From Desulfovibrio sp. (GTDB taxonomy: Bacteria > Desulfobacterota > Desulfovibrionia > Desulfovibrionales > Desulfovibrionaceae), in the NCBI GenBank assembly GCA_031291035.1, contig JAISLI010000026.1:4537-68536 (forward strand): a stretch of 64,000 nt of DNA, read 5' to 3'. Shown here in pieces: positions 522 to 47,530 of the stretch (its first letter is position 1; each line of letters opens with the position of its first letter). The translations under genes and the position numbers were made by a program. A model generated the notes under the pieces. That model did not search any database. It was not told the origin of the DNA and saw nothing but the letters and a program-made list of their open reading frames with translations.

Positions 522-1180
522 AAATCAGGCCACAACAGCCGATTTCAGCCCGCGCGTCCATCCTTTTTTTCTTTTTTCCGGGATGAATATCCTTTTTCGC
601 CCGCATCTTCATGCCCTCCGCCCAAGGAAAAAATGTCCGTCCGGCAGTGCCGGAACGTCGCACAATTGTCACACAGACGAAACACCTACCTGTTCGCGGC
701 GCGAAAGTAAAGGTTTTTCTTCATACTTTTCCGGGCACCCGAAGAAAATTCATAGAATCTTGAAATAACAAGTATTTTATACGATTTCGCCTGAAAATAT
801 TCCTCTGATAAAGAAGCACTGAATGATCCCGGTCCGGGCGGACAAAAAAATTTTACAAAGATTTTTTCTCTTGACAGTCGCCCGGACATGCCGGGGGCGA
901 GGTTCGGGCCTGTGATAAAATAAAATGAATATTCGTGAGAAAAATGAAGAAAAATTGATCTGCATTTGTTAAAAAAGCTTTTTTAAAATGTGAATTTCTT
1001 CAAAATACAGAAGATTTTCAAGGCTGAAAAATTGGGATGAATCTTCGACGGCAGAAAAAACAATATTTATATTGGCATATTATGCGTGTCCTTCTTTGGG
1101 AAAAATAAAAACAGCTCCTCAACATATATGCCTCTTCCGCTCCGGTTGTCCAAAACTTCCAGCTTGCGTAAAAGTATCCC

Positions 1181-2533
1181 ATGCAAGAAAAATGGACCGC
1201 AATTTCAGAAAATCTGGAAAAAACACTTGATCCGGGCACGTTTAAGGTCTGGATTGCGCCGTTGCGCGCCGCCGTGCGGGAGAAGAGCCTCTGTCTTTTT
1301 GCCCGGAACGCCTTTGTGGCGGACTGGCTGAAAACCCGCATGACGGCCCGCCTGCGCGAAGCCGCGGCTCCGGTTCTCGGCGTTGATCCCCAGGATGTGG
1401 AGATACGCATCGAGATTGAGCCGGCGCGGAATACAGCCCCCCTGAAGACCACGTTCGCGCGCCGGATCTGTCTGCCCCTGCCCAGGTGCGAGATGGGCAG
1501 GGGGGATCAGGTGTGGCGACACTCCTTTGAGGATTTTGAAGTGGGCTGCAGCAACAGCGTGGCCGTGGCCGCCGCCAGGGACGTCTGCGACAACGGCGGC
1601 ACTGTGAACACGCTGTTTGTGAACTCCGCCTCCGGCCTTGGCAAGACCCATCTGACGCACGCCGTGGGCAAGGCCATCAGCCAGTCACCGCGGGACATTC
1701 GCATAGCCTATATGACGGCGGAAGACTTTACCCGGCGTTTTGTCACGGCCCTGCGGCGACGGGAAGTTGAAGGATTCCGTGAATGTTTTGCTGATCTGGA
1801 GGTGCTGCTGCTTGAGGATGTGCATTTTCTGCAGGGCAAGGAAAAAATCCAGGAAATAGCCCTGACGACCCTCAAAACCCTGCAAAACCAGGGCGGCAGG
1901 GTTATCTTCACGTCGTCCTTTTCCCCGCGCGAGCTGCAGGAGGTGGACGGCAGTCTCGTCTCGCACTTCTGTTCAGGCATCCTCACCTGCATGGAACGTC
2001 CATCCAGAGACATGCGCCGGCGCATCCTCATGCGCAAGGCAAAACAGTTTCAGGTCATTCTGCCCGACGACGTCTGTGATCTTCTGGCCTCGCGCCTGCG
2101 CGGGGATGTTCGCCAGTTGGAGTCCTGTCTCAACAATCTGGCTTTCAAGGCCCGTCTGCTCAACTGCGGCATCAATCCGCAACTGGCAATGGACGTGCTG
2201 TCGCAATATGCCGGCACGGAATGCGGCGCGGACATGCGGACCATCATACGCCTTGTCTGCGAAAGTTTCGGCCTGACGGAACGGCAGATCGGCTCGCGTT
2301 CACGGCGCCATGACTGCGTTACAGGACGCAACACGGCATATTATCTGGCGCGCAAGCACACCGAGCTTTCCCTGGAAGAAATAGGCGCGACGTTCAATCG
2401 CCGCCACTCCACCGTCATCAAGGGTATTACATCCGTGGAGCGGGAAATCTCCAGAGAATCCACCGAGGGGCGCCGACTTGCCGGCACGGTGCGCCTCATT
2501 GAGCGGAATGCCGGTCTTTCCGCCACCCTTTAG
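1181..2533 (+). CDS. dnaA: Chromosomal replication initiator DnaA (divergent paralogue)
   Basis: 450 aa; domain I WIAPL, Walker A SASGLGKT, Walker B LLLEDVHF, DVRQLES, domain IV SLEEIGATFNRRHSTV. Confidence 0.9.
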   Translation: MQEKWTAISENLEKTLDPGTFKVWIAPLRAAVREKSLCLFARNAFVADWLKTRMTARLREAAAPVLGVDPQDVEIRIEIEPARNTAPLKTTFARRICLPLPRCEMGRGDQVWRHSFEDFEVGCSNSVAVAAARDVCDNGGTVNTLFVNSASGLGKTHLTHAVGKAISQSPRDIRIAYMTAEDFTRRFVTALRRREVEGFRECFADLEVLLLEDVHFLQGKEKIQEIALTTLKTLQNQGGRVIFTSSFSPRELQEVDGSLVSHFCSGILTCMERPSRDMRRRILMRKAKQFQVILPDDVCDLLASRLRGDVRQLESCLNNLAFKARLLNCGINPQLAMDVLSQYAGTECGADMRTIIRLVCESFGLTERQIGSRSRRHDCVTGRNTAYYLARKHTELSLEEIGATFNRRHSTVIKGITSVEREISRESTEGRRLAGTVRLIERNAGLSATL

Positions 2534-2832
2534 CCCGCTCGCACAAAAGCTCAATATCTCCGCCCGCGGCCAGATTCAGCATCTGGCGAACTGACGCACG
2601 GCCGCCAGACTGTGGGGATTGGCGTTGAAAATGCCGACGAACAGGGCAGCGTCCTCGGTAAGCATTTTTTTTGGCCGCGTCCAGGCGGCGAGAGAAAAAA
2701 TTTCCGCACCAGGGCCAGATGCCCGGCTTTTGCCCCGCGTCCGGGAACCACGGCCACGGGCTTGTCATCGTTCGCGGCGGATGCCGGACCGAAAAGAGGA
2801 TGCGCGCCCACGAGCACGATTTTGTCCTTCAT
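2496..2832 (-). pseudogene. tyrA: Prephenate dehydrogenase pseudogene
   Basis: Follows aroA with ATGA overlap; GAHPLFGP motif, then FSRRLDAAKK / MLTEDAALFVGIFNANP / QMLNLAAGGDIELL in different frames; NAD-binding GxGxxG region absent. Confidence 0.8.
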
Positions 2833-4220
2833 GCGATTTGTCTCCAGATATCCCAAAATTGCGGAAAGGACTTCGCGACCACCGAGGGATCGTCCAGACG
2901 CGCCTCCATGTCAAGCGCGCCGTCGGGACGGCCCAGGCCCAGCAGGGCCAGCGACATGGCGATGCGGTGATCATTGTGGGCCGAAAAAACAGCGTCTCCC
3001 GCGAGGCGCGGTCGGTCGGGATACACCCCCCGCACAACAAGGCCGTCCGCTTTTTCCTCGACCACAATGCCCGCCTTGCGCAACTCGGCGGCCGGGGCCG
3101 CGATGCGGTCTGACTCCTTGACACGCAGATGCGCCGCGTTGTACAGGCGGCTCGCCCCTTTGGCAAAAGCGGCCAGCACGGCCACTGTGGGAACCAGATC
3201 GGGGCAGGAACCCATGTCAACATCCACCGCGCGCAGCCCTGACGGAAAAACCGTCACCGCACCCGGCCCGGTTTCCACGCGCGCGCCCATGGACCTGAGG
3301 ATATCCAGAAAAATCCTGTCTCCCTGCGGAGAATCCTCGCGCAGCCCCTCCACGCGCACAGGCCCGCGTCCCAGCGCGCCCGCCGCCAGCAGGTAGGACG
3401 CGCCGGACCAATCCCCTTCCACGAGGTAATCGCCGGCGCGGTATTTTGAAGGCCGTACGGTCACGCGCAGACATCCCGGCCTTACCGCGGCGACAGCGCG
3501 GCAACCTTGCACAGTGTTTCTCCGCCAGGCCGAATGTACATCGGAACGCGTTTCCACGCGGACGTCAATGCCGAAATCCTCCAGGCACTGAAGAGTCAGG
3601 CCCACATAGGGCCAGGAAACGGCCCTGTCTCCCGCCACTTCCAGGGTAAGAGGGGCCGCCGCCAGAGGCCCGGCCAGCAGAAGACCGGAAAAATACTGGC
3701 TGGACACATTCATGCCTATCCGGAGACTGCCTCCGCAACGCGCCGGGTCAAGGCCGCGGGCGTGCAAAATCAGGGGCGGGCAATCCGGTTTCCGCTCAAA
3801 ACGAACCTCTGCCCCGAGGCGGACCAGAGCATGGACAAGCTCCCCGATGGGGCGCTCGTGCATGCGCCCGGCTCCGTGGATATGAAAAAATCCCTTGCCG
3901 GCCGCCAGTACGGCCGTGAGCAGACGGCAGGTTGTGCCGGATTCGTGCACATCGCAGGAAAGCGCGCCGCCCGCCTCGTCGCCGCCTCTGGGTATGGTCA
4001 TGCCGCTCACCTCCCAGCCGTCGGGCAGGGCGTTCACGGTCGCTCCGGCCGCGCGGAGAATGGCCCGGGTGCGTTCCAGATCCCGGCTTTCCAGAGTGTT
4101 CCGCACACGGGATACCCCGGGCGCGAGGGCCGCGCCGACAAGATAGCGGTGCGAGGCGGACTTTGAGGCCGGGGCCGCCACGGAAACAATGCCGCTACGA
4201 CGCGTCACGGTCGTCCTCAC
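2829..4220 (-). CDS. aroA: 3-phosphoshikimate 1-carboxyvinyltransferase (EPSP synthase)
   Basis: APASKSASHR, ESGTTCRL, SSQYFSG, LRVKESDR, HNDHRIAM, VAKSFPQFW; start estimated at GTG 4220. Confidence 0.95.
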   Translation of the reverse strand: MRTTVTRRSGIVSVAAPASKSASHRYLVGAALAPGVSRVRNTLESRDLERTRAILRAAGATVNALPDGWEVSGMTIPRGGDEAGGALSCDVHESGTTCRLLTAVLAAGKGFFHIHGAGRMHERPIGELVHALVRLGAEVRFERKPDCPPLILHARGLDPARCGGSLRIGMNVSSQYFSGLLLAGPLAAAPLTLEVAGDRAVSWPYVGLTLQCLEDFGIDVRVETRSDVHSAWRRNTVQGCRAVAAVRPGCLRVTVRPSKYRAGDYLVEGDWSGASYLLAAGALGRGPVRVEGLREDSPQGDRIFLDILRSMGARVETGPGAVTVFPSGLRAVDVDMGSCPDLVPTVAVLAAFAKGASRLYNAAHLRVKESDRIAAPAAELRKAGIVVEEKADGLVVRGVYPDRPRLAGDAVFSAHNDHRIAMSLALLGLGRPDGALDMEARLDDPSVVAKSFPQFWDIWRQIA

Positions 4221-5382
4221 ACGAATTTTCCCCGCTGTTATGCTCCAGACGCGGACCGGCCGGATATGCTCCCAGAATGCGAAAGCTCGTACAGACATCC
4301 TCCAGCCGACCGCGGAGGGCCGTGTGCCGCCTGGCGGTGAGATCGCTCTCCACATCCGCGAAAAAGACATAACGCCAGCTTTGCCCGCGCAGGGGGCGGG
4401 ACTCCAGCTTGCGCATGTTGATGCCGCCGTCCGCAAGCAGGGTGAGCACTCCGGAGAGAGCGCCCGCTTTGTCCGGCAGGGTAAACAACAGGGATGTCTT
4501 GTCCGCCGCGCCGCCGGCTTCGGGAGACGGCAGGGACTGAAAAGCCGCCCTGGGACCGATGACGACGAAACGCGTCCAGTTGTCGGAAAGGTCTTCAATA
4601 CGCCGGGCCAGAATGCCGAGACCCAGCATGTCGGACAGTTTGCGGTGTCCGATGGCCGCCGCGCTCCCGTTTCCCGCCGCGTTCCGGGCGGCGGCGGCAG
4701 TGGATTCCACCGGCACAAGGGCCGCCGTGGGCAAATGGACGCGCAGCCAGCCTCCGCACTGGGCCAGAGGCTGAGGATGGGAATACACGGTGCCTATGGC
4801 CGCAAGGGATGGCGCATCGCTCAGCAGACAGTGGGAAATGCGCGAAAACAGCTCCGCCTGGATGAAGACATCGTGGCTCAGGAAAAAGTCAAAGCTCACG
4901 CCGACCGTGCCTTGCAGGGAATTTTCCAGGGGCACGACGCCGAGGTCGCACCGGCCGGAAGAAACCTCTTCAAAAATCCCGGCAATGTCGCCGCAGGGAT
5001 GGAAAGAAGCCGCGTGCCCCAGGTATTCCACCCCGGCAAAATAGGAAAAGGTGCCTTCAGGGCCGAGATAGGCCACGTTCTGGGGACGCTGCAGGGCGCG
5101 GGAGGACGAAAAAATCTCGCGCCATACGGCCCGCAGGTGATCCGCGGGCAGGGGGCCCGGATTCCTGCGCACAAGGCTCTCCAGCACTTCACGCTCCCGA
5201 AGGGGCTTGAAGACGCCTGGTCCCATGTTCTTTTTGATGCTTCCCACTTCAAGGCTCAATGACGCCCGGCGATTGAGCAGGTCAAGCAGGGCGGCGTCCG
5301 CGGCGTCGATTTCCGCCCTGATGGCGGCAAGGCGTTCGGCCGGACTTGAGCGGACTTCGGCGTTTGCGAACGATTCCGTCAT
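4195..5382 (-). CDS. pheA: Chorismate mutase / prephenate dehydratase
   Basis: N-terminal CM (IRAEIDAAD..LLNRR), AYLGPEGTFS, VVPLENS, NWTRF, ACT domain KLESRP. Confidence 0.95.
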   Translation of the reverse strand: MTESFANAEVRSSPAERLAAIRAEIDAADAALLDLLNRRASLSLEVGSIKKNMGPGVFKPLREREVLESLVRRNPGPLPADHLRAVWREIFSSSRALQRPQNVAYLGPEGTFSYFAGVEYLGHAASFHPCGDIAGIFEEVSSGRCDLGVVPLENSLQGTVGVSFDFFLSHDVFIQAELFSRISHCLLSDAPSLAAIGTVYSHPQPLAQCGGWLRVHLPTAALVPVESTAAAARNAAGNGSAAAIGHRKLSDMLGLGILARRIEDLSDNWTRFVVIGPRAAFQSLPSPEAGGAADKTSLLFTLPDKAGALSGVLTLLADGGINMRKLESRPLRGQSWRYVFFADVESDLTARRHTALRGRLEDVCTSFRILGAYPAGPRLEHNSGENSCEDDRDAS

Positions 5383-5385
5383 AAC

Positions 5386-6372
5386 CTAGACCTCCCGTAT
5401 GTCTTCATGCACGCGCATGCCGAAATGCCGGCCCGCCTCGTCAGCGCGGCAGAGCACAACATCGCCGCGCCTGATCCCCACAACGCTCAAAGGGGTGCCG
5501 TCCGGGGCCGTCAGGCGTATGGTTTCCGCATTCTGCAAAAAAATCCCGCCGCTTTTTTTCAGACCCCGCTCGGCTTCGATCTCGGCTTCTATGTAGAGCA
5601 TGGGTCTCACCTCAATCTTGACGCGCCCCAGGGTGGCAAGCCGCGCCGCCCCGTCCGCGCTGACGATGAGAACTTCCCTGCCGGCGGCAAGCTCTCCCAG
5701 ATACGTGGTCCTGTCACGGGGCAGACGCACATAGGCGTGCACGGCTCCGGCGTTGACCCGAAAAGGCCGCGCGGCCACATATTCATTGTGCTCGGTTTCC
5801 GCATGGACGAGAAAGGTAAAGGCAGAGGAATTGCCCACGAGCATGCCTTCCCCCCGGCGCAGGAGGGAAAGGGTGTCCGCGCAGACGCGGTGGCCCAGGC
5901 CCGCGGCCTCCACGCGGGTGACGAGGCAGGGCTTCAGGTCTTCCCGGTTCTGGGAAAGTTTACAGGCGGCCACAATTTCCCTAACTTCCCCAATCGCCTC
6001 GTCCGTCAGCACGACGCCGGCCACTCCGCGCTCCAGAATGCCGGAGGCGAGTCTTGCCTCGTCAAGGCCGCCCGCTTCGACAAAAACGGCGTCGCTGCCG
6101 GCCAGCAAATTCTCCACGGGAATCACCTCCCAGCCGCGGGCCAGCACCAGACGTTCCCCCCCCCGCAAGCGGACAAGCGCGTCCTGTTCGTCGGATTTGG
6201 CAGCCAAGGTCACGCGGCGCGTTTCCTCATCAGCCCAGACGACGCAGCGGGCAAGAGCCGAGGCCTGCCCGGCCATATCCCGGGGCACAATCAGGCCGTC
6301 CACGCCGGATTCCAGGGCCAGGGTCACATGTGCCTTGTTGTAGGGCACGGAGCGGAAATATATCTGCGGCAT
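5386..6372 (-). CDS. 3-dehydroquinate synthase II (archaeal-type AroB')
   Basis: GHRVCADT, GEGMLVG, RPFRVNAGAVHAY, GRVKIEVRP, LQNAETIRL, GRHFGM. Confidence 0.93.
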   Translation of the reverse strand: MPQIYFRSVPYNKAHVTLALESGVDGLIVPRDMAGQASALARCVVWADEETRRVTLAAKSDEQDALVRLRGGERLVLARGWEVIPVENLLAGSDAVFVEAGGLDEARLASGILERGVAGVVLTDEAIGEVREIVAACKLSQNREDLKPCLVTRVEAAGLGHRVCADTLSLLRRGEGMLVGNSSAFTFLVHAETEHNEYVAARPFRVNAGAVHAYVRLPRDRTTYLGELAAGREVLIVSADGAARLATLGRVKIEVRPMLYIEAEIEAERGLKKSGGIFLQNAETIRLTAPDGTPLSVVGIRRGDVVLCRADEAGRHFGMRVHEDIREV

Positions 6373-6375
6373 CGT

Positions 6376-7173
6376 CTATTCTCCAACAATTTCCAGGGCC
6401 GCGTCCACGGTGGCGTCTTCGTGGACAATGGCGCGCAGAGCCTTGATAAGGTCAACGCGGCGGGGATGCTGGAACACGTTGCGGCCAACGGAAATACCGG
6501 CGCCGCCGGCCTGAAGGGAATCATAAATCATTTGCAGGATATCGCGGGTTGACTCCATGCGCTCGCCGCCGGCTATGACAACGGGCACACAGCAGGCGGC
6601 AATCACGGTGGAAAAGCTCTCCATATCCCCGGTATAGGGAACCTTGACAATATCCGCCCCCAGTTCCACGCCGACGCGCGCGCAGTGGGCCACAACATCC
6701 GGCGCATAGCCGTTGGGCACCCTCGGTCCGCGCGCGTATACCATGGTCAGCAAGGGCATGCCCCAGTTGTCGCACGCTTCGGCCACCTTGCCCATGTCCG
6801 CCAGCATGAACCGTTCGTTGGGGTCGCCCAGGTTGACATGCACGGACACGCAGTCCGCGCCGTGCCTGATGCCTTCCTCCACCGTGCCCACGAGTGTTTT
6901 GGTGTTGCCGGCCGGGCTCAGTGCGGTGGAGGCGGAAAGATGGACAATCAGGCCTATGTCCTTGCCGGCGCTACGGTGGGAGCAGCGCACCAGCCCCTTG
7001 TGCATCAATACCGCGTCGGCGCCGCCCCTGGCCATGTCGTTGACGGCCAGGCGCATGTCTATGAGACCTTCCACCGCGCCGATGGTGACCCCGTGATCCA
7101 TGGGCACAATGATGGTGCGGCCGTTTTCCCTGTTGATGATGCGTTCCAGACGGACTTTTTTGCCGAGATACAT
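6376..7173 (-). CDS. 2-amino-3,7-dideoxy-D-threo-hept-6-ulosonate synthase (class I aldolase, AroA')
   Basis: IVPMDHG, ELGADIVKVPY, VPVVIAGG, VGRNVFQH; adjacent to DHQ synthase II. Confidence 0.9.
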   Translation of the reverse strand: MYLGKKVRLERIINRENGRTIIVPMDHGVTIGAVEGLIDMRLAVNDMARGGADAVLMHKGLVRCSHRSAGKDIGLIVHLSASTALSPAGNTKTLVGTVEEGIRHGADCVSVHVNLGDPNERFMLADMGKVAEACDNWGMPLLTMVYARGPRVPNGYAPDVVAHCARVGVELGADIVKVPYTGDMESFSTVIAACCVPVVIAGGERMESTRDILQMIYDSLQAGGAGISVGRNVFQHPRRVDLIKALRAIVHEDATVDAALEIVGE

Positions 7174-7222
7174 GTGTGCGCTCCTGTGGTTTCAAATGTG
7201 CTGATTACGCCGGAGCGGCTCC

Positions 7223-7257
7223 AAAAAAAGGGCCGCCGGCGTTGTGCCTGCGGCCCT
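7223..7257 (-). terminator. Intrinsic terminator of the aro operon attenuator
   Basis: Minus strand AGGGCCGC-AGGCACAACGCCG-GCGGCCCT followed by a U-run, about 50 nt before the aroA' start. Confidence 0.85.
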
Positions 7258-7281
7258 CTGACTTTCTTGCTCGCGTTCGCG

Positions 7282-7383
7282 TCAACCAAGTCCCCGACCA
7301 CAGGCTCCGGCAAAATACGCAAAAAAGAACCAGCGAAAGCCGGCGGCGTACGGGGAGGAAGTGGCGGAAACAAAGGACTGCAT
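7282..7383 (-). CDS. Aromatic amino-acid leader peptide (33 aa)
   Basis: GGAG RBS; MQSFVSATSSPYAAGFRWFFFAYFAGACGRGLG*; 9 aromatic residues; precedes terminator; segment 7305-7296 can pair with the terminator 5' arm. Confidence 0.8.
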   Translation of the reverse strand: MQSFVSATSSPYAAGFRWFFFAYFAGACGRGLG

Positions 7384-7457
7384 GATGTGGACTCCGTAAC
7401 GGGAATGCGGATAGCCCGTTGCGAAAAATTTGTCAATACATTTTTTCGGGCACCCCA

Positions 7458-7487
7458 TTGACAGGCCCCGCAAAGCGGACATACATT
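7458..7487 (+). promoter_or_regulatory. Putative sigma70 promoter of HD-protein/ddl
   Basis: TTGACA-18 nt-TACATT; a divergent TTGACA on the minus strand nearby could drive the aro leader. Confidence 0.4.
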
Positions 7488-7557
7488 CCCGCATGCGCCA
7501 GACGAAAATAGCGGCAGGCCCGCGGTTGTTTCCGGCGGTTCGCGCGCACTGGTCATT

Positions 7558-8241
7558 ATGAGTACTGACAAGGCCGACGCTCCGCCCGGAAGATCCGCTC
7601 CCCGCCGTCCGATGACCGGACTGCCGCAGTGCGGAGCGCTTGCCCGCGCGCGTCCTCTGCCGCCCCCACCGGATGATGATCGCTGTTTCGCCCTGTGGCG
7701 CGCGTATGAAATGCTTCCCAACGTGCGGGGCCATTCGCTTCTGGTGGCCCATATCGCCACGCGTCTGGCCGAGCGCGCGGTGGAACAAGGTTTTGACGTT
7801 TCCGTGGAACAGGTGCGCGCCGCCGCCATGCTCCACGACATCGCAAAAAGCTACTGCGTCAGGTACGGCGGCAGCCATGCCATGATCGGCGCCAGTTGGG
7901 TTGTGGAACGCACAGCCCATTACCCTGTGGCGCAGGGGGTTCTGTTCCACGTCCACTGGCCCTGGCCTCTGCCGGAGGGTGCGAGTATCTGCGGCCTGCC
8001 CTTTTTCATCATTTATGCGGACAAAAGAGTGCGCCACGACCACTGCGTCAACCTGAAAGAACGCTTTGAAGATCTGCTCGCGCGTTACGGCAAAAACGCG
8101 GAGGCCAGACAAAGCATACGCGAATCCTTTGCCCAGGGAAAAAACATTGAACGCGCCTTTACTGCGCTGCTGAAATGGGACATGCATGAAGATTCTTTTG
8201 ATTGCGGGCGGTTGGTCGAGCGAGAGGGAGGTTTCCCTTGA
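7558..8241 (+). CDS. HD-domain phosphohydrolase
   Basis: GHSLLVA, AAMLHDIAK, GGSHA, IIYADKRV. Confidence 0.8.
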   Translation: MSTDKADAPPGRSAPRRPMTGLPQCGALARARPLPPPPDDDRCFALWRAYEMLPNVRGHSLLVAHIATRLAERAVEQGFDVSVEQVRAAAMLHDIAKSYCVRYGGSHAMIGASWVVERTAHYPVAQGVLFHVHWPWPLPEGASICGLPFFIIYADKRVRHDHCVNLKERFEDLLARYGKNAEARQSIRESFAQGKNIERAFTALLKWDMHEDSFDCGRLVEREGGFP

Positions 8242-9103
8242 CGGCGCGCGCGGCATGGAGAAAACTCTGCTGGCGCGCGGGCACAGGGTTACCTTTTTCG
8301 ACCTGCTTGGCGGCTTTGACAACCTGCTCGCCACGGCGGCCGGACACGATTTTGCCTTCATCAATCTGCACGGCGCGCCGGGAGAGGACGGTCTTGTGCA
8401 GGCCATGCTGGATCAGGCGGGCTGTCCCTATCAGGGGTCAGGCCCGGCCGGTTCCTTTCTCGCGCTGCACAAAGCCGCCGCCAAGCAGATTTTCCGTCAG
8501 GCCGGCCTGCCTACGGCCGATTGGGAATATCTGCCGCTCCCGCCGGAAAAATCATGGCGGCCGCGCCTGCCCTACCCGCTCTTTGCCAAAAGCAATACCG
8601 GCGGGTCCTCGCTTCGCATGGGCCGCGCCCGCGACCGCACCGAACTGGACGCAAAACTGGCTGAGATTTTTGCCGCCGGAGACGAAGCCCTGCTGGAAAG
8701 CGAAGTCAAAGGCAGGGAAGTCACTTGCGGGGTACTGGGAGAAGAGGCCCTGCCCCCCATTCTCATTGAGCCCGTCGGCTCGGTTTTTTTTGACTACCGG
8801 AGCAAATACGCCGTCGGCGGCGCGCGGGAGGTCTGCCCCGCCCCCCTTCCGCCCCCGGTTGTAAACGAAGTGCGGAAACTTGCTCTCGCGGCCCACAGGG
8901 CGCTGGGGCTCTCCGGCTACAGCAGGGCGGATTTCATTCTGGACAAAAAGGGGGAATTGATCCTGCTCGAAGTCAATACCCTGCCGGGCATGACCGCCAC
9001 AAGCCTTGTGCCGCGGGAGGCCAAAGCCGCGGGGCTGGATTTCGGCGACCTGCTGGAAAAACTCATGGAACTCGGCAAGCCGCCCGCTTCCGCCGAAAGC
9101 TGA
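8186..9103 (+). CDS. ddl: D-alanine--D-alanine ligase
   Basis: GGWSSEREVSL, LHGAPGEDG, GGSS, GREVTCG, SRADF, LEVNTLPGMT. Confidence 0.95.
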   Translation: MKILLIAGGWSSEREVSLDGARGMEKTLLARGHRVTFFDLLGGFDNLLATAAGHDFAFINLHGAPGEDGLVQAMLDQAGCPYQGSGPAGSFLALHKAAAKQIFRQAGLPTADWEYLPLPPEKSWRPRLPYPLFAKSNTGGSSLRMGRARDRTELDAKLAEIFAAGDEALLESEVKGREVTCGVLGEEALPPILIEPVGSVFFDYRSKYAVGGAREVCPAPLPPPVVNEVRKLALAAHRALGLSGYSRADFILDKKGELILLEVNTLPGMTATSLVPREAKAAGLDFGDLLEKLMELGKPPASAES

Positions 9104-40322: not shown

Positions 40323-41658
40323 GAGAGGATATCATTTTATTCGCGAGTTCAATATGTTTTGGCAATGTCGAAAGTATGCCGAACGGAATCCAAACTCCTT
40401 CATTACTTGGCAAAGACAAATGATAAAGAGCAATCATAAATTTATTTGCAAAAAGCATTATTTCAATTCTTTCTCCAGAATTTACTGCCATTAATGAATT
40501 CTTACTGACCATATTTCTATTAAATTTATTGTGAAAAATTTGTTCATGCTTTATATTATATTCTGTATCAAGCCATAAATTAATTTTTTTAACTTTACCA
40601 TTGTCACGAAACTCATGTATTGCATCGATAAATAGATGGTCTTTTCCCCAAAGCGCATAATCAGGTTTAACCCAGTCAACCTCATAATTTAATTTATTAT
40701 TTATACAAATTTCATTAATTTTATTAATGGTCTTTTTAATATTATTATCCAAATAAATATTACCAAAAAAGGATTCAACTCCATTTATTGTTTTTTGAGT
40801 ATTTACAAAATGTTTCTCATTAATAAGATATTTAATAATATTAAATGAATTATTATTAATATATTTACCTAAATAATGAATACCGAATTCGGCTATAAAT
40901 TTATTTAAACCAATATTATTTTTATCAAATATAACAATACGCCTACTGTCATTAGGCATTTTAGAAGTAATTTCCTTATTGAGCATATTTTTGAAATCTT
41001 GGCTTAAATTATCAATACTTTCACTAAAATTTCTTATGATATTTCCATCACTGTTAAGTGCAAAAGAAACAGGAATATTAATATATCCACCTCCAACAGA
41101 TTCAATATCTTCAATAGAATAAACACTAAAGGATTTTTCACGAATTTTATCGGCTCGAGTTGATGCTATTTCAGGGTATTGCCTATGGAATGCATCTTCT
41201 GCATATTTTTTGCTATTACTAATATTATTTTCAGGAATTTCAAGTAATATTGAAGTATCAATCTTATTTAAGAGTGAGCATGGAGGTAAAAAAATAAAAG
41301 TAAAAAGCTCAAAAACAACAGTATATTGATGCCGTTCGATTTTATTTAATCTAGGGTATTTACCTCCTGTGTCCTGAAAACGCTCTAAGGCATATTTTGT
41401 TAAACTGATTGTTTCTCCATTTAAATCTAAAAATCCTTGACGATGTAAAGATTCAACAACAGAAATAACTTCATTCGGTGTAAAACCAAAATATTTCCTC
41501 AATGATGCTATTGATATATTATCACAAATATATATTAACTTTAAACAAAATTCGGTCACTGCAGGTAGACGCTCATCTAATGCAATATTTGCAGAAATGC
41601 GAAATTTTTCAACAGGCAAAGAATATGTAATATGGTTAAATTCTACTACATCAGTCAT
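40255..41658 (-). CDS. Partner protein of the kinase-helicase (MkoB-like; N-terminal winged-helix-like region)
   Basis: 467 aa AT-rich ORF starting 1 nt after the helicase stop; YFGFT..EV..V..L...GF pattern; no HxK(x4)D. Confidence 0.75.
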   Translation of the reverse strand: MTDVVEFNHITYSLPVEKFRISANIALDERLPAVTEFCLKLIYICDNISIASLRKYFGFTPNEVISVVESLHRQGFLDLNGETISLTKYALERFQDTGGKYPRLNKIERHQYTVVFELFTFIFLPPCSLLNKIDTSILLEIPENNISNSKKYAEDAFHRQYPEIASTRADKIREKSFSVYSIEDIESVGGGYINIPVSFALNSDGNIIRNFSESIDNLSQDFKNMLNKEITSKMPNDSRRIVIFDKNNIGLNKFIAEFGIHYLGKYINNNSFNIIKYLINEKHFVNTQKTINGVESFFGNIYLDNNIKKTINKINEICINNKLNYEVDWVKPDYALWGKDHLFIDAIHEFRDNGKVKKINLWLDTEYNIKHEQIFHNKFNRNMVSKNSLMAVNSGERIEIMLFANKFMIALYHLSLPSNEGVWIPFGILSTLPKHIELANKMISSLKSYAPKQTSKCRCRPPRRKRN

Positions 41659-47355: not shown

Positions 47356-47432
47356 TGGCGTCCCCAAGCGGATTCGAACCGCTGTTGACGGCGTGAAAGG
47401 CCGTTGTCCTGGGCCGACTAGACGATGGGGAC
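47356..47432 (-). tRNA. tRNA-Glu (TTC)
   Basis: GTCCCCA acceptor, anticodon arm ACGGC-CTTTCAC-GCCGT, GTTCGAATC, encoded CCA. Confidence 0.97.
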
Positions 47433-47455: not shown

Positions 47456-47530
47456 TGGCTGGGCTGCTAGGACTCGAACCTAGATTAGCGGAGCCAGAAT
47501 CCGCCGTCCTGCCAATTGAACGACAACCCA
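47456..47530 (-). tRNA. tRNA-Gln (CTG)
   Basis: Anticodon arm GCGGA-TTCTGGC-TCCGC, GGTTCGAGTCC, encoded CCA. Confidence 0.97.

What the first reader, a model, noticed from the sequence alone, without database searches (positions are those of the whole stretch)
7223..7400. Unannotated ribosome-mediated attenuator sensing Phe, Trp and Tyr upstream of the archaeal-type aro operon
Seen: RBS plus a 33-aa leader with the core FRWFFFAYF (6 Phe, 2 Tyr, 1 Trp in total). A GC stem with a U-run follows at 7257-7223. Leader segment GCCUGUGGUC (7305-7296, codons 27-30) pairs over 10 bp, with two G-U, with the terminator 5' arm GGCCGCAGGC (7255-7246), giving an exclusive antiterminator. Known: this is the trpL/pheL logic. 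Inference: one leader integrates all three aromatic amino acids for a shared pathway; I do not know of this being characterised in Desulfovibrio.
Basis: partly seen in the sequence, partly recalled or inferred. Interest (0 to 1): 0.78.

Follow-up and report, generated by a model that had tools for sequence, protein, structure and literature searches.

The report
Aromatic leader-peptide attenuator before aro operon
A 33-codon mini-gene packed with Phe, Tyr and Trp codons, followed by a switchable terminator hairpin, sits in front of the aromatic amino-acid synthesis genes of this Desulfovibrio and most of its relatives; it is a real, conserved and unnamed example of the classic ribosome-sensing "attenuator" switch, not a new kind of mechanism.

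Summary
On the minus strand there is GGAG (7395-7392), a 33-codon ORF (7383-7282, MQSFVSATSSPYAAGFRWFFFAYFAGACGRGLG), a terminator (7256-7230) with U7 (7229-7223), and a 10-bp alternative pairing 7305-7296 with 7255-7246. Downstream lie aroA' (ADH-synthase type), aroB' (DHQ synthase II), pheA and EPSP synthase.

Comparative evidence is strong. About 65 of 77 usable aroA' loci carry an aromatic-rich leader ORF. Tyr+Trp codons are frame-specific (3.6 per core versus 0.1 and 0.8). On a structure-blind alignment of 51 sequences, 93% of antiterminator cells and 99% of terminator cells pair. One antiterminator pair covaries (UA30/CG10/UG5/AU2) at a base that is unpaired in the terminator. A model built only from distant relatives finds the window element (61 bits, E~1e-13). 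Ribosome-footprint modelling reproduces trpL/pheL logic.

It matches no Rfam, Pfam or NCBIfam family. A 2005 paper already listed a predicted attenuator before the D. vulgaris aroA' supraoperon, and C. glutamicum aroR-aroF is a characterised analogue. No transcript 3'-end or starvation data could be obtained, so sensing of all three amino acids remains inferred.

Verdict: real, and a new member of a known kind. Interest is moderate.

The parts
7431..7436 (-). putative -35 hexamer TTGACA of the leader promoter
   Evidence: Read directly from the sequence. A perfect TTGACA about 17 nt before a TA-initial hexamer recurs upstream of the leader in 10 of 11 close relatives. The role as a promoter is inferred; no transcription start site data exist.
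7408..7413 (-). putative -10 hexamer TATCCG (a weak match)
   Evidence: It lies 17 nt after the TTGACA. Relatives have TAACGT, TAGATT, TAGCTT or TAAAAG at the same spacing. The consensus scanner did not report it.
7392..7395 (-). Shine-Dalgarno sequence GGAG of the leader ORF
   Evidence: It lies 8 nt upstream of the ATG. An in-frame start preceded by a Shine-Dalgarno sequence is present in 45 of 63 loci, and 43 of those starts are ATG.
7282..7383 (-). leader ORF, 33 codons plus TGA: MQSFVSATSSPYAAGFRWFFFAYFAGACGRGLG
   Evidence: Translation. Homologous aromatic-rich leaders are found in about 65 loci. Aromatic codons are frame-specific. Median leader length is 34 aa.
7312..7338 (-). control-codon cluster F16 R W F F F A Y F24 (5 Phe, 1 Trp, 1 Tyr)
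   Evidence: It is the only stop-free 9-codon stretch with at least 7 F/W/Y in all six frames of the window.
7316..7350 (-). hairpin spanning the control codons (UACGC-GCCGGC...GCUGGU...GCGUA); its 5' half, 7348-7337 CGCCGCCGGCUU, is also the best 'segment 1' partner of arm 2
   Evidence: It appears in the RNAalifold consensus of 11 close relatives. It folds at -11.8 kcal/mol. The 1:2 duplex is -13.6 kcal/mol with z -1.7 in the window, but the signal is weak across all loci. The inner hairpin plus U-run was flagged as terminator-like. Any role as a pause site or anti-antiterminator is inferred.
7296..7305 (-). antiterminator 5' arm ('segment 2'), GCCUGUGGUC, covering codons 27-30 (A C G R)
   Evidence: It pairs 10 of 10 with 7255-7246. 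On the MAFFT alignment, 93.3% of cells are paired against 35-45% when the partner is slid, and 4 pairs show changes on both sides.
7282..7284 (-). leader stop codon TGA, 12 nt after the end of arm 2
   Evidence: A ribosome modelled at the stop codon removes all antiterminator pairs. Arm 2 sits at -24 to -15 relative to the end of the stop codon in most Desulfovibrionaceae loci.
7246..7256 (-). terminator 5' arm GGGCCGC-A-GGC ('segment 3'), shared with the antiterminator
   Evidence: The A at 7249 is unpaired in the terminator but covaries with the leader base 7302 (UA30/CG10/UG5/AU2).
7230..7240 (-). terminator 3' arm GCC-G-GCGGCCC ('segment 4')
   Evidence: 98.8% of cells are paired, and 6 pairs show changes on both sides across 51 sequences.
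7223..7229 (-). U7 tract of the intrinsic terminator
   Evidence: A T-run follows the hairpin in nearly all loci.
6376..7173 (-). aroA' (2-amino-3,7-dideoxy-D-threo-hept-6-ulosonate synthase type, DeoC family), the first regulated gene; its ATG is 49 nt after the U-tract
   Evidence: Pfam PF01791, E 3.6e-63. Relatives are named ADH synthase by their sources.
5386..6372 (-). aroB' (3-dehydroquinate synthase II)
   Evidence: Pfam PF01959, E 1.9e-95.
4195..5382 (-). pheA (chorismate mutase, prephenate dehydratase and ACT domains)
   Evidence: Pfam PF01817, PF00800 and PF01842.
2829..4190 (-). aroA (EPSP synthase), the last gene of the operon; the next gene, dnaA, is convergent
   Evidence: Pfam PF00275, E 4.3e-88; DnaA domains in the ORF at 1181-2533(+). 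The exact start codon was not determined.

Best explanation
This is a ribosome-mediated (leader-peptide) transcription attenuator of the trpL/pheL type. It controls the aroA'-aroB'-pheA-aroA operon.

Transcription probably starts about 20 nt upstream of the leader ATG, from a TTGACA-N17-TATCCG promoter. A ribosome then translates the 33-codon leader while RNA polymerase is still transcribing the region downstream.

- Charged aromatic tRNAs plentiful: the ribosome runs to the TGA at 7284-7282. There it covers or disrupts segment 2 (7305-7296). Segment 3 (7256-7246) therefore pairs with segment 4 (7240-7230), and the hairpin plus U7 terminates transcription 49 nt before aroA'.
- Charged tRNA-Phe scarce (and probably tRNA-Tyr or tRNA-Trp too): the ribosome stalls in the FRWFFFAYF cluster. 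It then covers the upstream partner of segment 2 and leaves segment 2 free. Segment 2 captures segment 3 as soon as it is made, the terminator cannot form, and polymerase reads into the operon.
- No translation at all: segment 2 is held by upstream sequence and termination is the default.

What is shown: the sequence anatomy; conservation of the ORF, the aromatic codons, the terminator and the antiterminator; covariation of both helices; and co-transcription of leader and aroA' in relatives.

What is inferred: the promoter and start site; coupling of ribosome and polymerase; actual termination at 7223-7229; and which of the three amino acids the switch responds to in vivo.
For: 1. Anatomy is exact.

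2. The regulated genes are aromatic-pathway genes.

3. Of 80 aroA' loci from GTDB species genomes, about 65 of 77 with enough upstream DNA have a short ORF with an aromatic-rich core upstream. It is usually 100-140 nt from aroA', followed by a hairpin and T-run.

4. The signal is at the codon level. There are 8.0 aromatic codons per 15-codon core in the leader frame, against 2.0 and 2.8 in the other frames. Tyr+Trp codons number 3.6 against 0.10 and 0.81. Both synonymous codons are used (TTT 231, TTC 66, TAT 115, TAC 67).

5. On a MAFFT alignment made without any structure input (A2, 51 sequences), 93.3% of antiterminator cells are paired, against 35-45% when the partner is slid. Four pairs show changes on both sides, and 0 of 500 shuffles reach the covariation score. 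The terminator has 98.8% paired and 6 such pairs.

6. The pair 7302:7249 covaries (UA30/CG10/UG5/AU2), although 7249 is the unpaired A of the terminator's A.G mismatch. Only the antiterminator helix explains that covariation.

7. Mailhella-type loci changed both arms together (GUGCCUGUGGUU with AACCACGGCAC).

8. Footprint modelling: with the A-site at W18-F21, 10 of 10 antiterminator pairs form on the nascent RNA. With the A-site at the stop codon, 0 of 10 form and the terminator forms. With no ribosome, segment 2 is held upstream and the terminator forms.

9. A covariance model built from 37 distant relatives only finds 7311-7222(-) at 61.4 bits, E~1e-13, and nothing else independent in the 64 kb.

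10. RNA contigs from relatives join the leader and aroA' in one transcript. One metatranscriptome contig starts 21 nt upstream of the leader ATG.

11. A -35 TTGACA and a Shine-Dalgarno sequence are conserved upstream of the leader.
Against: - No experimental evidence was available. No public run holds this organism. For relatives, only assembled contigs with flat depth were available. They show read-through but no short terminated RNA and no 3' ends.
- At equilibrium the terminator state is about 9 kcal/mol more stable than the antiterminator state, even with a stalled ribosome. Antitermination must therefore be kinetic. This is usual for attenuators (my knowledge of the trp leader energies) but was not demonstrated here.
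- The whole-leader folding z-score is only -1.5.
- The 1:2 'anti-antiterminator' pairing is only weakly supported across loci (mean z -1.4).
- The -10 hexamer TATCCG is poor and was not called by the scanner.
- A ribosome stalled at the last two aromatic codons (Y23, F24) would partly occlude segment 2, leaving 9 of 10 and 6 of 10 pairs. Not every control codon is equally effective.
- Trp codons are missing from 16 of 63 leaders. In the C. glutamicum aroR leader, Tyr limitation had no effect (PMC11802643). Three-way sensing is therefore not assured.
Confidence: 0.85

Rival explanations
1. This is a Phe-only (or Phe-dominated) attenuator. The mechanism is as above, but only tRNA-Phe charging matters in practice. 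The Tyr and Trp codons would be tolerated or only weakly contributing, so the leader would not truly integrate three signals.
For: Phe codons dominate: 5 of the 7 aromatic codons in the window core, and TTT+TTC = 297 of 543 aromatic codons across loci. The operon contains the Phe-branch gene pheA but no tyrA or trp genes. The single Trp codon and the Tyr codon at position 23 are not in tandem runs. In C. glutamicum aroR (Phe-Tyr-Phe) the operon responded to Phe but not Tyr (PMC11802643). Trp is absent from 16 of 63 leaders.
Against: Tyr codons are present in 62 of 63 leaders and Trp in 47 of 63. Both are strongly frame-specific (3.6 versus 0.1 and 0.8), although Trp is the rarest amino acid. 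Some lineages are Tyr-rich (YYFYFYY in L077 and L078) or have two or three Trp codons (L036, L045, L080). That is hard to explain without selection for these codons. The Trp codon is kept at the same place throughout the window's clade (alignment).
Confidence: 0.3
2. The terminator/antiterminator switch is set by a protein or small ligand (TRAP-like, T-box-like or a riboswitch), and the short ORF is incidental.
For: The arm sequences are conserved at the level of sequence, not just pairing, across a whole order. That could hint at a binding partner. No translation data exist.
Against: No Rfam family, T-box and riboswitches included, matches even at E<=10. Only 6 scattered (G/U)AG triplets are present, so there is no TRAP-type array. 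The ORF, its start with a Shine-Dalgarno sequence, and above all the frame-specific aromatic codons with synonymous variation are conserved. The stop codon keeps a fixed distance from arm 2. None of this is expected for a non-translated element. The region between arm 2 and the terminator is variable and has no conserved ligand-pocket-like core.
Confidence: 0.04
3. The ORF encodes a functional small hydrophobic protein with its own terminator, and aroA' is transcribed independently. Alternatively, the terminated leader RNA works mainly in trans as an sRNA, as rnTrpL does in Sinorhizobium.
For: Gene callers predict 35-37 aa proteins at this position in relatives. The peptide is hydrophobic. The unusual sequence-level conservation of the arms could serve as a seed. 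Trans-acting attenuator RNAs and leader peptides are documented in Sinorhizobium (PMC6614838, PMC7298713).
Against: Outside the aromatic run and the codons that form RNA arms, the peptide sequence and length are not conserved (18-56 aa). Only 49 nt separate the U-tract from the aroA' ATG, and no promoter-like site was found there. RNA contigs join the leader to aroA'. The element is always linked to aroA'. A trans role would be additional to cis attenuation, not an alternative to it.
Confidence: 0.06
4. It is a chance juxtaposition of a T-rich ORF and an ordinary terminator belonging to an upstream transcript.
For: The high-GC genome has many mechanical ORFs. The leader frame is open for 374 codons upstream.
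Against: The upstream genes are divergent (HD-domain gene and ddl on the + strand), so there is no upstream transcript to terminate. The aromatic cluster is unique in the window. The element is conserved and covaries across about 65 species.
Confidence: 0.01

Closest known systems
E. coli pheL-pheA and trpL-trpEDCBA leader-peptide attenuators (Rfam Phe_leader, Trp_leader)
   Same: The same logic applies. A short translated leader carries clustered codons for the end-product amino acid. An intrinsic terminator precedes the first biosynthetic gene. An alternative antiterminator has its 5' arm just downstream of the control codons and is blocked by a ribosome at the stop codon. Termination is the default without translation (the mechanism of trpL/pheL is as summarised in PMC11802643 and from my own knowledge).
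   Different: There is no sequence or structure similarity: no Rfam hit even at E<=10. The control cluster mixes three amino acids rather than one. The regulated genes include the common pathway, in its archaeal-type aroA'/aroB' form, not only one terminal branch. The candidate segment 1 lies 5' of and overlapping the start of the control codons, and its pairing is only weakly supported.
Corynebacterium glutamicum aroR leader upstream of aroF (DAHP synthase) (Neshat et al. 2014, as described in PMC11802643)
   Same: It is a leader-peptide attenuator placed in front of the first step of the common aromatic pathway, with a mixed aromatic control motif (Phe-Tyr-Phe). This is the closest characterised functional analogue.
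   Different: It is in a different phylum, regulates a different first enzyme (a classical DAHP synthase rather than an ADH-synthase type), and has only three control codons with no Trp. It was shown experimentally to respond to Phe but not Tyr. No homology was tested or is expected. The Desulfovibrio element has 7-9 aromatic codons, usually including Trp.
[quoted passage not shown] 2005, PMC1173090, Table 7)
   Same: It is very probably the orthologous element. The Nitratidesulfovibrio loci L026 and L027 carry the same leader, terminator and antiterminator family.
   Different: That record is an automated terminator/antiterminator prediction listed in a table. As far as the searchable literature shows, it came with no leader peptide, no control codons, no conservation analysis and no experiment. 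In the window organism the operon is shorter, with no tyrA or trp genes.
Multivalent leaders such as ilvGMEDA (Leu/Val/Ile) and thr (Thr/Ile) of enterobacteria
   Same: One leader peptide carries codons for several end products of a branched pathway, so any one limitation can relieve termination (from my own knowledge of these systems).
   Different: Different amino acids, no homology, and the multivalent response is experimentally established there but only inferred here.

Membership tests
Ribosome-mediated (leader-peptide) transcription attenuators (mechanistic class) | Short ORF with its own start codon and ribosome-binding site in the 5' leader | tested here: met
   GGAG, 8 nt, then ATG; 33 codons. 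An in-frame start preceded by a Shine-Dalgarno sequence is present in 45 of 63 related loci.
Ribosome-mediated (leader-peptide) transcription attenuators (mechanistic class) | Cluster of codons for the amino acid(s) made by the regulated genes, conserved as codons | tested here: met
   The core is FRWFFFAYF. The frame-specific excess of aromatic codons is 8.0 versus 2.0 and 2.8, and for Tyr+Trp 3.6 versus 0.1 and 0.8, with synonymous variation. The cluster is unique in the window.
Ribosome-mediated (leader-peptide) transcription attenuators (mechanistic class) | Intrinsic terminator between the leader ORF and the first structural gene | tested here: met
   -24.7 kcal/mol hairpin plus U7 at 7256-7223. 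It is conserved, with 98.8% of cells paired and 6 covarying pairs.
Ribosome-mediated (leader-peptide) transcription attenuators (mechanistic class) | Antiterminator mutually exclusive with the terminator and supported independently of it | tested here: met
   10-bp helix 7305-7296 with 7255-7246. 93.3% of cells paired, 4 covarying pairs, including a pair whose 3' base is unpaired in the terminator.
Ribosome-mediated (leader-peptide) transcription attenuators (mechanistic class) | Geometry: a ribosome stalled at the control codons leaves the antiterminator arm free, and a ribosome at the stop codon blocks it | tested here: met
   In the footprint model, 10 of 10 pairs form for the A-site at W18-F21, 9 of 10 at Y23, 6 of 10 at F24 and 0 of 10 at the stop codon. 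Arm 2 sits at -24 to -15 from the end of the stop codon in most loci. The footprint size is an assumption.
Ribosome-mediated (leader-peptide) transcription attenuators (mechanistic class) | Segment 1:2 pairing (anti-antiterminator or pause hairpin) that gives termination without translation | tested here: inconclusive
   In the window, arm 2 pairs with CGCCGCCGGCUU (7348-7337, -13.6 kcal/mol) or CCGCCAC (7367-7361). Across 51 loci the mean z is -1.4 and only 35% fall below -1.64.
Ribosome-mediated (leader-peptide) transcription attenuators (mechanistic class) | Read-through increases on starvation for the cognate amino acid, and terminated leader transcripts are detectable | not testable with these tools
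   No run holds the organism. Contigs from relatives show co-transcription only.
Rfam leader families (Trp_leader, Phe_leader, His_leader, Thr_leader, Leu_leader and others) | Score at or above the family's gathering threshold against its covariance model | tested here: not met
   No leader family appears even at E<=10 in 6500-8500. The whole window at gathering threshold gives only two tRNAs.
T-box and TRAP-type attenuation | T-box covariance-model match, or an array of about 9-11 (G/U)AG repeats | tested here: not met
   No T-box hit. Only 6 scattered (G/U)AG triplets in the 232-nt leader.
Known leader-peptide protein families (Pfam, NCBIfam) | HMM match of the peptide | tested here: not met
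   No family at E<=10 for three representative leaders.
Conserved aroA' leader RNA of Desulfovibrionales and relatives (family defined here) | Match to a covariance model built from other members that excludes the query and its close clade | tested here: met
   Model R1, built from 37 distant loci, gives window 7311-7222(-) at 61.4 bits, E~1e-13. The next independent hit scores 17.8 bits.

The most novel reading that the evidence does not exclude
The most novel reading is a phylum-scale, still unnamed attenuator family of the Desulfovibrionales and neighbouring Thermodesulfobacteriota. In it, a single leader peptide truly integrates the charging state of tRNA-Phe, tRNA-Tyr and tRNA-Trp to gate the archaeal-type (aroA'/aroB') entry into the common aromatic pathway. 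The codon mix would be retuned lineage by lineage: Tyr-rich, Trp-rich or Phe-only leaders. A further possibility follows from the unusually sequence-conserved arm (GGGCCGCAGGC) and its conserved A.G mismatch: the released roughly 180-nt leader RNA might have a second, trans-acting role like rnTrpL.
Probability: 0.35. Interest if true: 0.55.

Novelty: new member of a known kind. Interest (0 to 1): 0.4.

Why it matters
It gives a concrete, testable regulatory mechanism for aromatic amino-acid biosynthesis in sulfate-reducing and gut Desulfovibrionaceae. The entry steps of that pathway are the unusual aroA'/aroB' enzymes, and the searchable literature contains only a one-line database prediction about their regulation.

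The element is conserved in about 65 species, yet it is absent from Rfam, Pfam and NCBIfam. It could therefore be added as a new RNA family and leader-peptide family, and used to annotate hundreds of genomes and MAGs.

It is also a natural series for studying multivalent attenuation, because leaders range from Phe-only to Tyr-rich or Trp-rich.

It does not change what is understood about how attenuation works.

Tried and rejected
- Rfam at permissive and at gathering thresholds gave nothing relevant. The best hit was STnc380 at 22 bits against a gathering score of 60, driven by the terminator.
- Pfam and NCBIfam scans of three leader peptides gave no hits.
An exact look-up of two relatives' leader ORFs found unnamed clusters only.
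- RNA evidence was sought in several ways:
  - The window sequence is in no public run (at most 8% of words, in termite-gut metagenomes).
  - For the Bilophila-like locus, RNA contigs are 2-6x deep and start inside aroA'.
  - For the Nitratidesulfovibrio locus, contigs cross the terminator, but contig depth is flat by construction, so no attenuation ratio or 3' ends can be read.
- Literature: Rodionov 2004 (PMC545781), Naville & Gautheret 2010 (PMC2965389), Sun 2013 (PMC3766115), Leyn 2016 (PMC5343134) and Korolev 2016 (PMC4833913) do not mention this element. 'DVU0460' occurs in no held paper. Price et al. 2011 (PMC3187205) is not held.
- I tried to test whether Trp codons in the leader track with trp genes in the operon. 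The 5-kb flanks end at tyrA, so the test could not be done.
- The 374-codon mechanical ORF in the leader frame (7282-8406) and the 260-codon ORF 7059-7841 were rejected as genes. They are antisense to, or overlap, the Pfam-supported HD-domain gene and ddl, and their translations are low-complexity.
- The simple promoter and terminator scanner missed both the leader promoter and the main terminator. I did not rely on it.
Full report
**1. What is in the sequence.**

Read on the minus strand, the region contains the following, in order:
- TTGACA at 7436-7431, then 17 nt, then TATCCG at 7413-7408.
- GGAG at 7395-7392.
- An ATG at 7383 opening a 33-codon ORF that ends in TGA at 7284-7282. It reads MQSFVSATSSPYAAGFRWFFFAYFAGACGRGLG.
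- A hairpin, GGGCCGC-A-GGC / ACAAC / GCC-G-GCGGCCC, at 7256-7230.
- Seven T at 7229-7223.
- The ATG of a 265-aa gene at 7173, 49 nt further on.

So is the 10-bp pairing with two G-U pairs. The hairpin folds at -24.7 kcal/mol and the 2:3 duplex at -21.1 kcal/mol.

The downstream genes are:
- a DeoC-family aldolase of the ADH-synthase (aroA') type;
- 3-dehydroquinate synthase II (aroB');
- a chorismate mutase-prephenate dehydratase-ACT protein (pheA);
- EPSP synthase.

They are tightly packed, and the operon ends where a convergent dnaA begins. The upstream neighbours, an HD-domain gene and ddl, are divergent. The terminator therefore cannot belong to an upstream transcript.

The closest AroA' proteins are from gut and uncultured Desulfovibrio species, at 95% to 80% identity, with D. 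piger at 80%.

**2. Is it more than chance?**

In all six frames of the 64-kb window, the leader core is the only stop-free 9-codon stretch with at least 7 aromatic residues. A first-order Markov simulation expects 0.35 stretches per window even at the weaker threshold of 6.

Folding energy is not an argument here. The leader's z-score is only -1.5.

**3. Comparative test.**

I used an alignment of AroA' proteins to fetch 80 loci from one-genome-per-species bacterial collections. They range from gut Desulfovibrio, Mailhella and Bilophila through Nitratidesulfovibrio (the D. vulgaris group), Solidesulfovibrio and Pseudodesulfovibrio to Desulfobacterales-like MAGs and Aquificota.

A short ORF with an aromatic-rich core lies upstream of aroA' in about 65 of the 77 loci with enough upstream DNA. 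It is typically 100-140 nt from the aroA' start. Examples:
- ...AAGFSWYFFAYFTEACGRELR (L001)
- ...YRTNYYFWYFFSYGEARGRMERA (Nitratidesulfovibrio, L026/L027)
- MQTLRNLTSGFYFWFWFSHARGLGGVRSN (Solidesulfovibrio, L036)
- ...QYYFYFYYPWP (L077)

The element is absent from all five Aquificota loci and from a few Desulfovibrionales loci where another gene precedes aroA'.

The aromatic signal is at the codon level:
- The leader frame has 8.0 aromatic codons per 15-codon core, against 2.0 and 2.8 in the other frames.
- For Tyr plus Trp codons, which U-richness cannot produce, the figures are 3.6 against 0.10 and 0.81.
- Both synonymous codons are used.

An in-frame start preceded by a Shine-Dalgarno sequence is found in 45 of 63 loci, and the median leader is 34 aa. 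Outside the aromatic run, the only widely conserved 'residues' are A-C-G-(R/Q/E). These are the codons that form RNA arm 2.

**4. The two alternative helices.**

A hairpin plus T-run follows the leader in nearly all loci, with a strikingly conserved sequence. When the terminator's 3' arm is left out of the fold, its 5' arm pairs with a segment in the last eight or so leader codons in almost every locus.

I aligned 51 leader-tail-to-terminator segments with MAFFT, with no structure input (A2). I then projected the window's two helices onto the alignment.

- Antiterminator: 93.3% of cells are paired, against 35-45% when the partner is slid by 1-3 columns. Four pairs show changes on both sides, and 0 of 500 shuffles reach the covariation score.
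- Terminator: 98.8% of cells are paired, with six such pairs.

The most telling pair is window 7302 with 7249 (UA 30, CG 10, UG 5, AU 2). Position 7249 is the A of the conserved A.G mismatch and is unpaired in the terminator. Its covariation with a leader codon can only reflect the antiterminator.

Mailhella-type loci have changed both arms in concert (GUGCCUGUGGUU with AACCACGGCAC).

A covariance model built from 37 distant loci only, leaving out the window and its close clade, finds window 7311-7222(-) at 61.4 bits, E~1e-13. Apart from the reverse complement of the same near-palindromic terminator, nothing else in the window scores above 18 bits.

**5. How it most likely works.**

I modelled a ribosome as an unavailable stretch reaching 15 nt beyond the first P-site base.

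| Ribosome state | Antiterminator pairs on nascent RNA | Outcome |
|---|---|---|
| A-site at W18 to F21 | 10 of 10 (-31.4 kcal/mol) | read-through |
| A-site at Y23 | 9 of 10 | mostly read-through |
| A-site at F24 | 6 of 10 | partly occluded |
| A-site at the stop codon | 0 of 10 | terminator forms |
| No ribosome | arm 2 held by upstream sequence | terminator forms |

This is the behaviour of trpL and pheL.

At equilibrium the terminator state is about 9 kcal/mol more stable. The decision must therefore be kinetic: segment 2 captures segment 3 before segment 4 is transcribed. This is also how the classical systems are understood (my knowledge).

In the window's clade, RNAalifold also finds a conserved hairpin across the control codons (7350-7316, -11.8 kcal/mol). 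Its 5' half, CGCCGCCGGCUU, is the best alternative partner of arm 2 (-13.6 kcal/mol). A ribosome stalled at W18-F21 would cover it, which is the classical 'segment 1' position. Across all loci, however, this 1:2 pairing is only weakly better than shuffled controls (mean z -1.4). I call it plausible, not shown.

The inner hairpin followed by UCUUUUUUG was flagged as terminator-like. It could be the polymerase pause site that synchronises translation with transcription. This is inference only.

**6. Transcript evidence.**

No public run holds the window's sequence.

For a Nitratidesulfovibrio relative (L027), isolate transcriptome contigs span the leader, terminator and aroA' in one piece. A metatranscriptome contig starts 21 nt upstream of the leader ATG. 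Other metatranscriptome contigs cross the terminator.

This shows co-transcription and read-through. These are assembled contigs with flat depth, so they cannot show terminated RNAs or 3' ends. The Bilophila-like locus was uninformative.

**7. Rivals.**

- Protein- or ligand-driven switch. This is disfavoured by the conserved, frame-specific codons, the fixed distance from arm 2 to the stop codon, the lack of any Rfam match and the absence of a (G/U)AG array.
- Free-standing small-protein gene. This is disfavoured because the peptide is not conserved outside the codons under RNA or aromatic constraint. There are also only 49 nt, with no promoter-like site, before aroA'.
- Phe-dominated attenuator. 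This is the serious rival. Phe codons dominate, pheA is in the operon, and in C. glutamicum the Phe-Tyr-Phe aroR leader responded to Phe but not Tyr (PMC11802643). Against it, Tyr codons occur in 62 and Trp codons in 47 of 63 leaders, with strong frame specificity. Some lineages are Tyr-rich or carry two or three Trp codons. The window's leader keeps a Trp codon even though its operon has no trp genes. That fits control of the shared pathway.

**8. Comparison with what is known.**

Mechanistically this is a member of the leader-peptide attenuator class. Six of its seven defining features were testable here. Five were met and one, the 1:2 pairing, was inconclusive. The physiological response could not be tested.

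It is not a member of any Rfam leader family or any Pfam or NCBIfam leader-peptide family.

Prior art is as follows:
- Song et al. [quoted passage not shown] They do not describe a leader peptide.
- I found no description of the peptide, its codons or its conservation in the searchable literature. Price et al. 2011, which might bear on it, is not held.
- The closest characterised analogue is C. glutamicum aroR-aroF.
- Multivalent leaders as such are known for ilv and thr (my knowledge).

**9. Verdict.**

The element is a conserved, unnamed family and a new member of a well-known kind.

A specialist would find it satisfying rather than surprising. Its value lies in annotation, in explaining regulation of the unusual aroA'/aroB' pathway, and as a natural series for multivalent attenuation.

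- Interest: 0.4.
- Confidence in the attenuator mechanism: 0.85.
- Confidence that all three amino acids are sensed: roughly one in three to one in two.

Noticed in passing
window 7319-7344 (-): Inside the leader ORF, the hairpin GCCGGCUUUCGCUGGU (-8 kcal/mol) is followed directly by UCUUUUUUG, which is the Phe codons. The consensus scanner flagged it as terminator-like. It could be an RNA-polymerase pause site that couples transcription to leader translation.
   Followed up: partly
L084-L086, 659-2301: In these Nitratidesulfovibrio-like contigs the leader is followed by two tandem DeoC/aroA' paralogs (266 aa each) before aroB'. This looks like a duplication of the first pathway gene under the same attenuator.
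   Followed up: no
L026/L027 (L027 740-972): In N. liaohensis and N. oxamicus, a GC-rich spacer of about 234 nt lies between the terminator and the aroA' start, against about 45-110 nt elsewhere. Its content is unknown; it could hold a second regulatory element or a decayed gene.
   Followed up: no
L050, L058, L065 (about 48-85 nt upstream of aroA'): Instead of a leader, these loci have a conserved 59-70 aa ORF (MVKRVATK...VVWAWSDMTRK) immediately upstream of aroA'. Its function is unknown, and no aromatic leader was found within 2.5 kb.
   Followed up: no
L005 (1-682): A gut Desulfovibrio MAG whose AroA' is 81% identical to the window's shows no aromatic leader in the 682 nt available upstream. 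This is either loss of the attenuator or a contig or assembly issue.
   Followed up: no
window 1018-2533: dnaA (450 aa, + strand, 1181-2533) converges on the end of the aro operon. An AT-rich stretch lies just upstream of dnaA (about 1018-1180). This could be the replication-origin neighbourhood.
   Followed up: no
window about 40700-41320, 44190, 45820: AT-rich, stop-rich stretches stand out from the 58.6% GC background. They appeared as aromatic-codon-rich windows containing stop codons. Their nature was not examined.
   Followed up: no
window 47359-47432 and 47459-47530 (-): Two adjacent tRNA genes are the only Rfam matches at gathering threshold in the whole window.
   Followed up: no
window 7282-8406 (-): The leader's reading frame stays open for 374 codons upstream. 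The mechanical ORF list therefore shows a 374-aa 'ORF' ending at the leader stop. It is antisense to the Pfam-supported HD-domain gene (7558-8241, +) and is not a gene.
   Followed up: yes
window 7458-7487 (+): A promoter-like site (TTGACA-18-TACATT, 10 of 12 matches) points toward the divergent HD-domain gene and ddl. It lies back-to-back with the leader promoter, so the roughly 120-bp intergenic core probably holds two divergent promoters.
   Followed up: no
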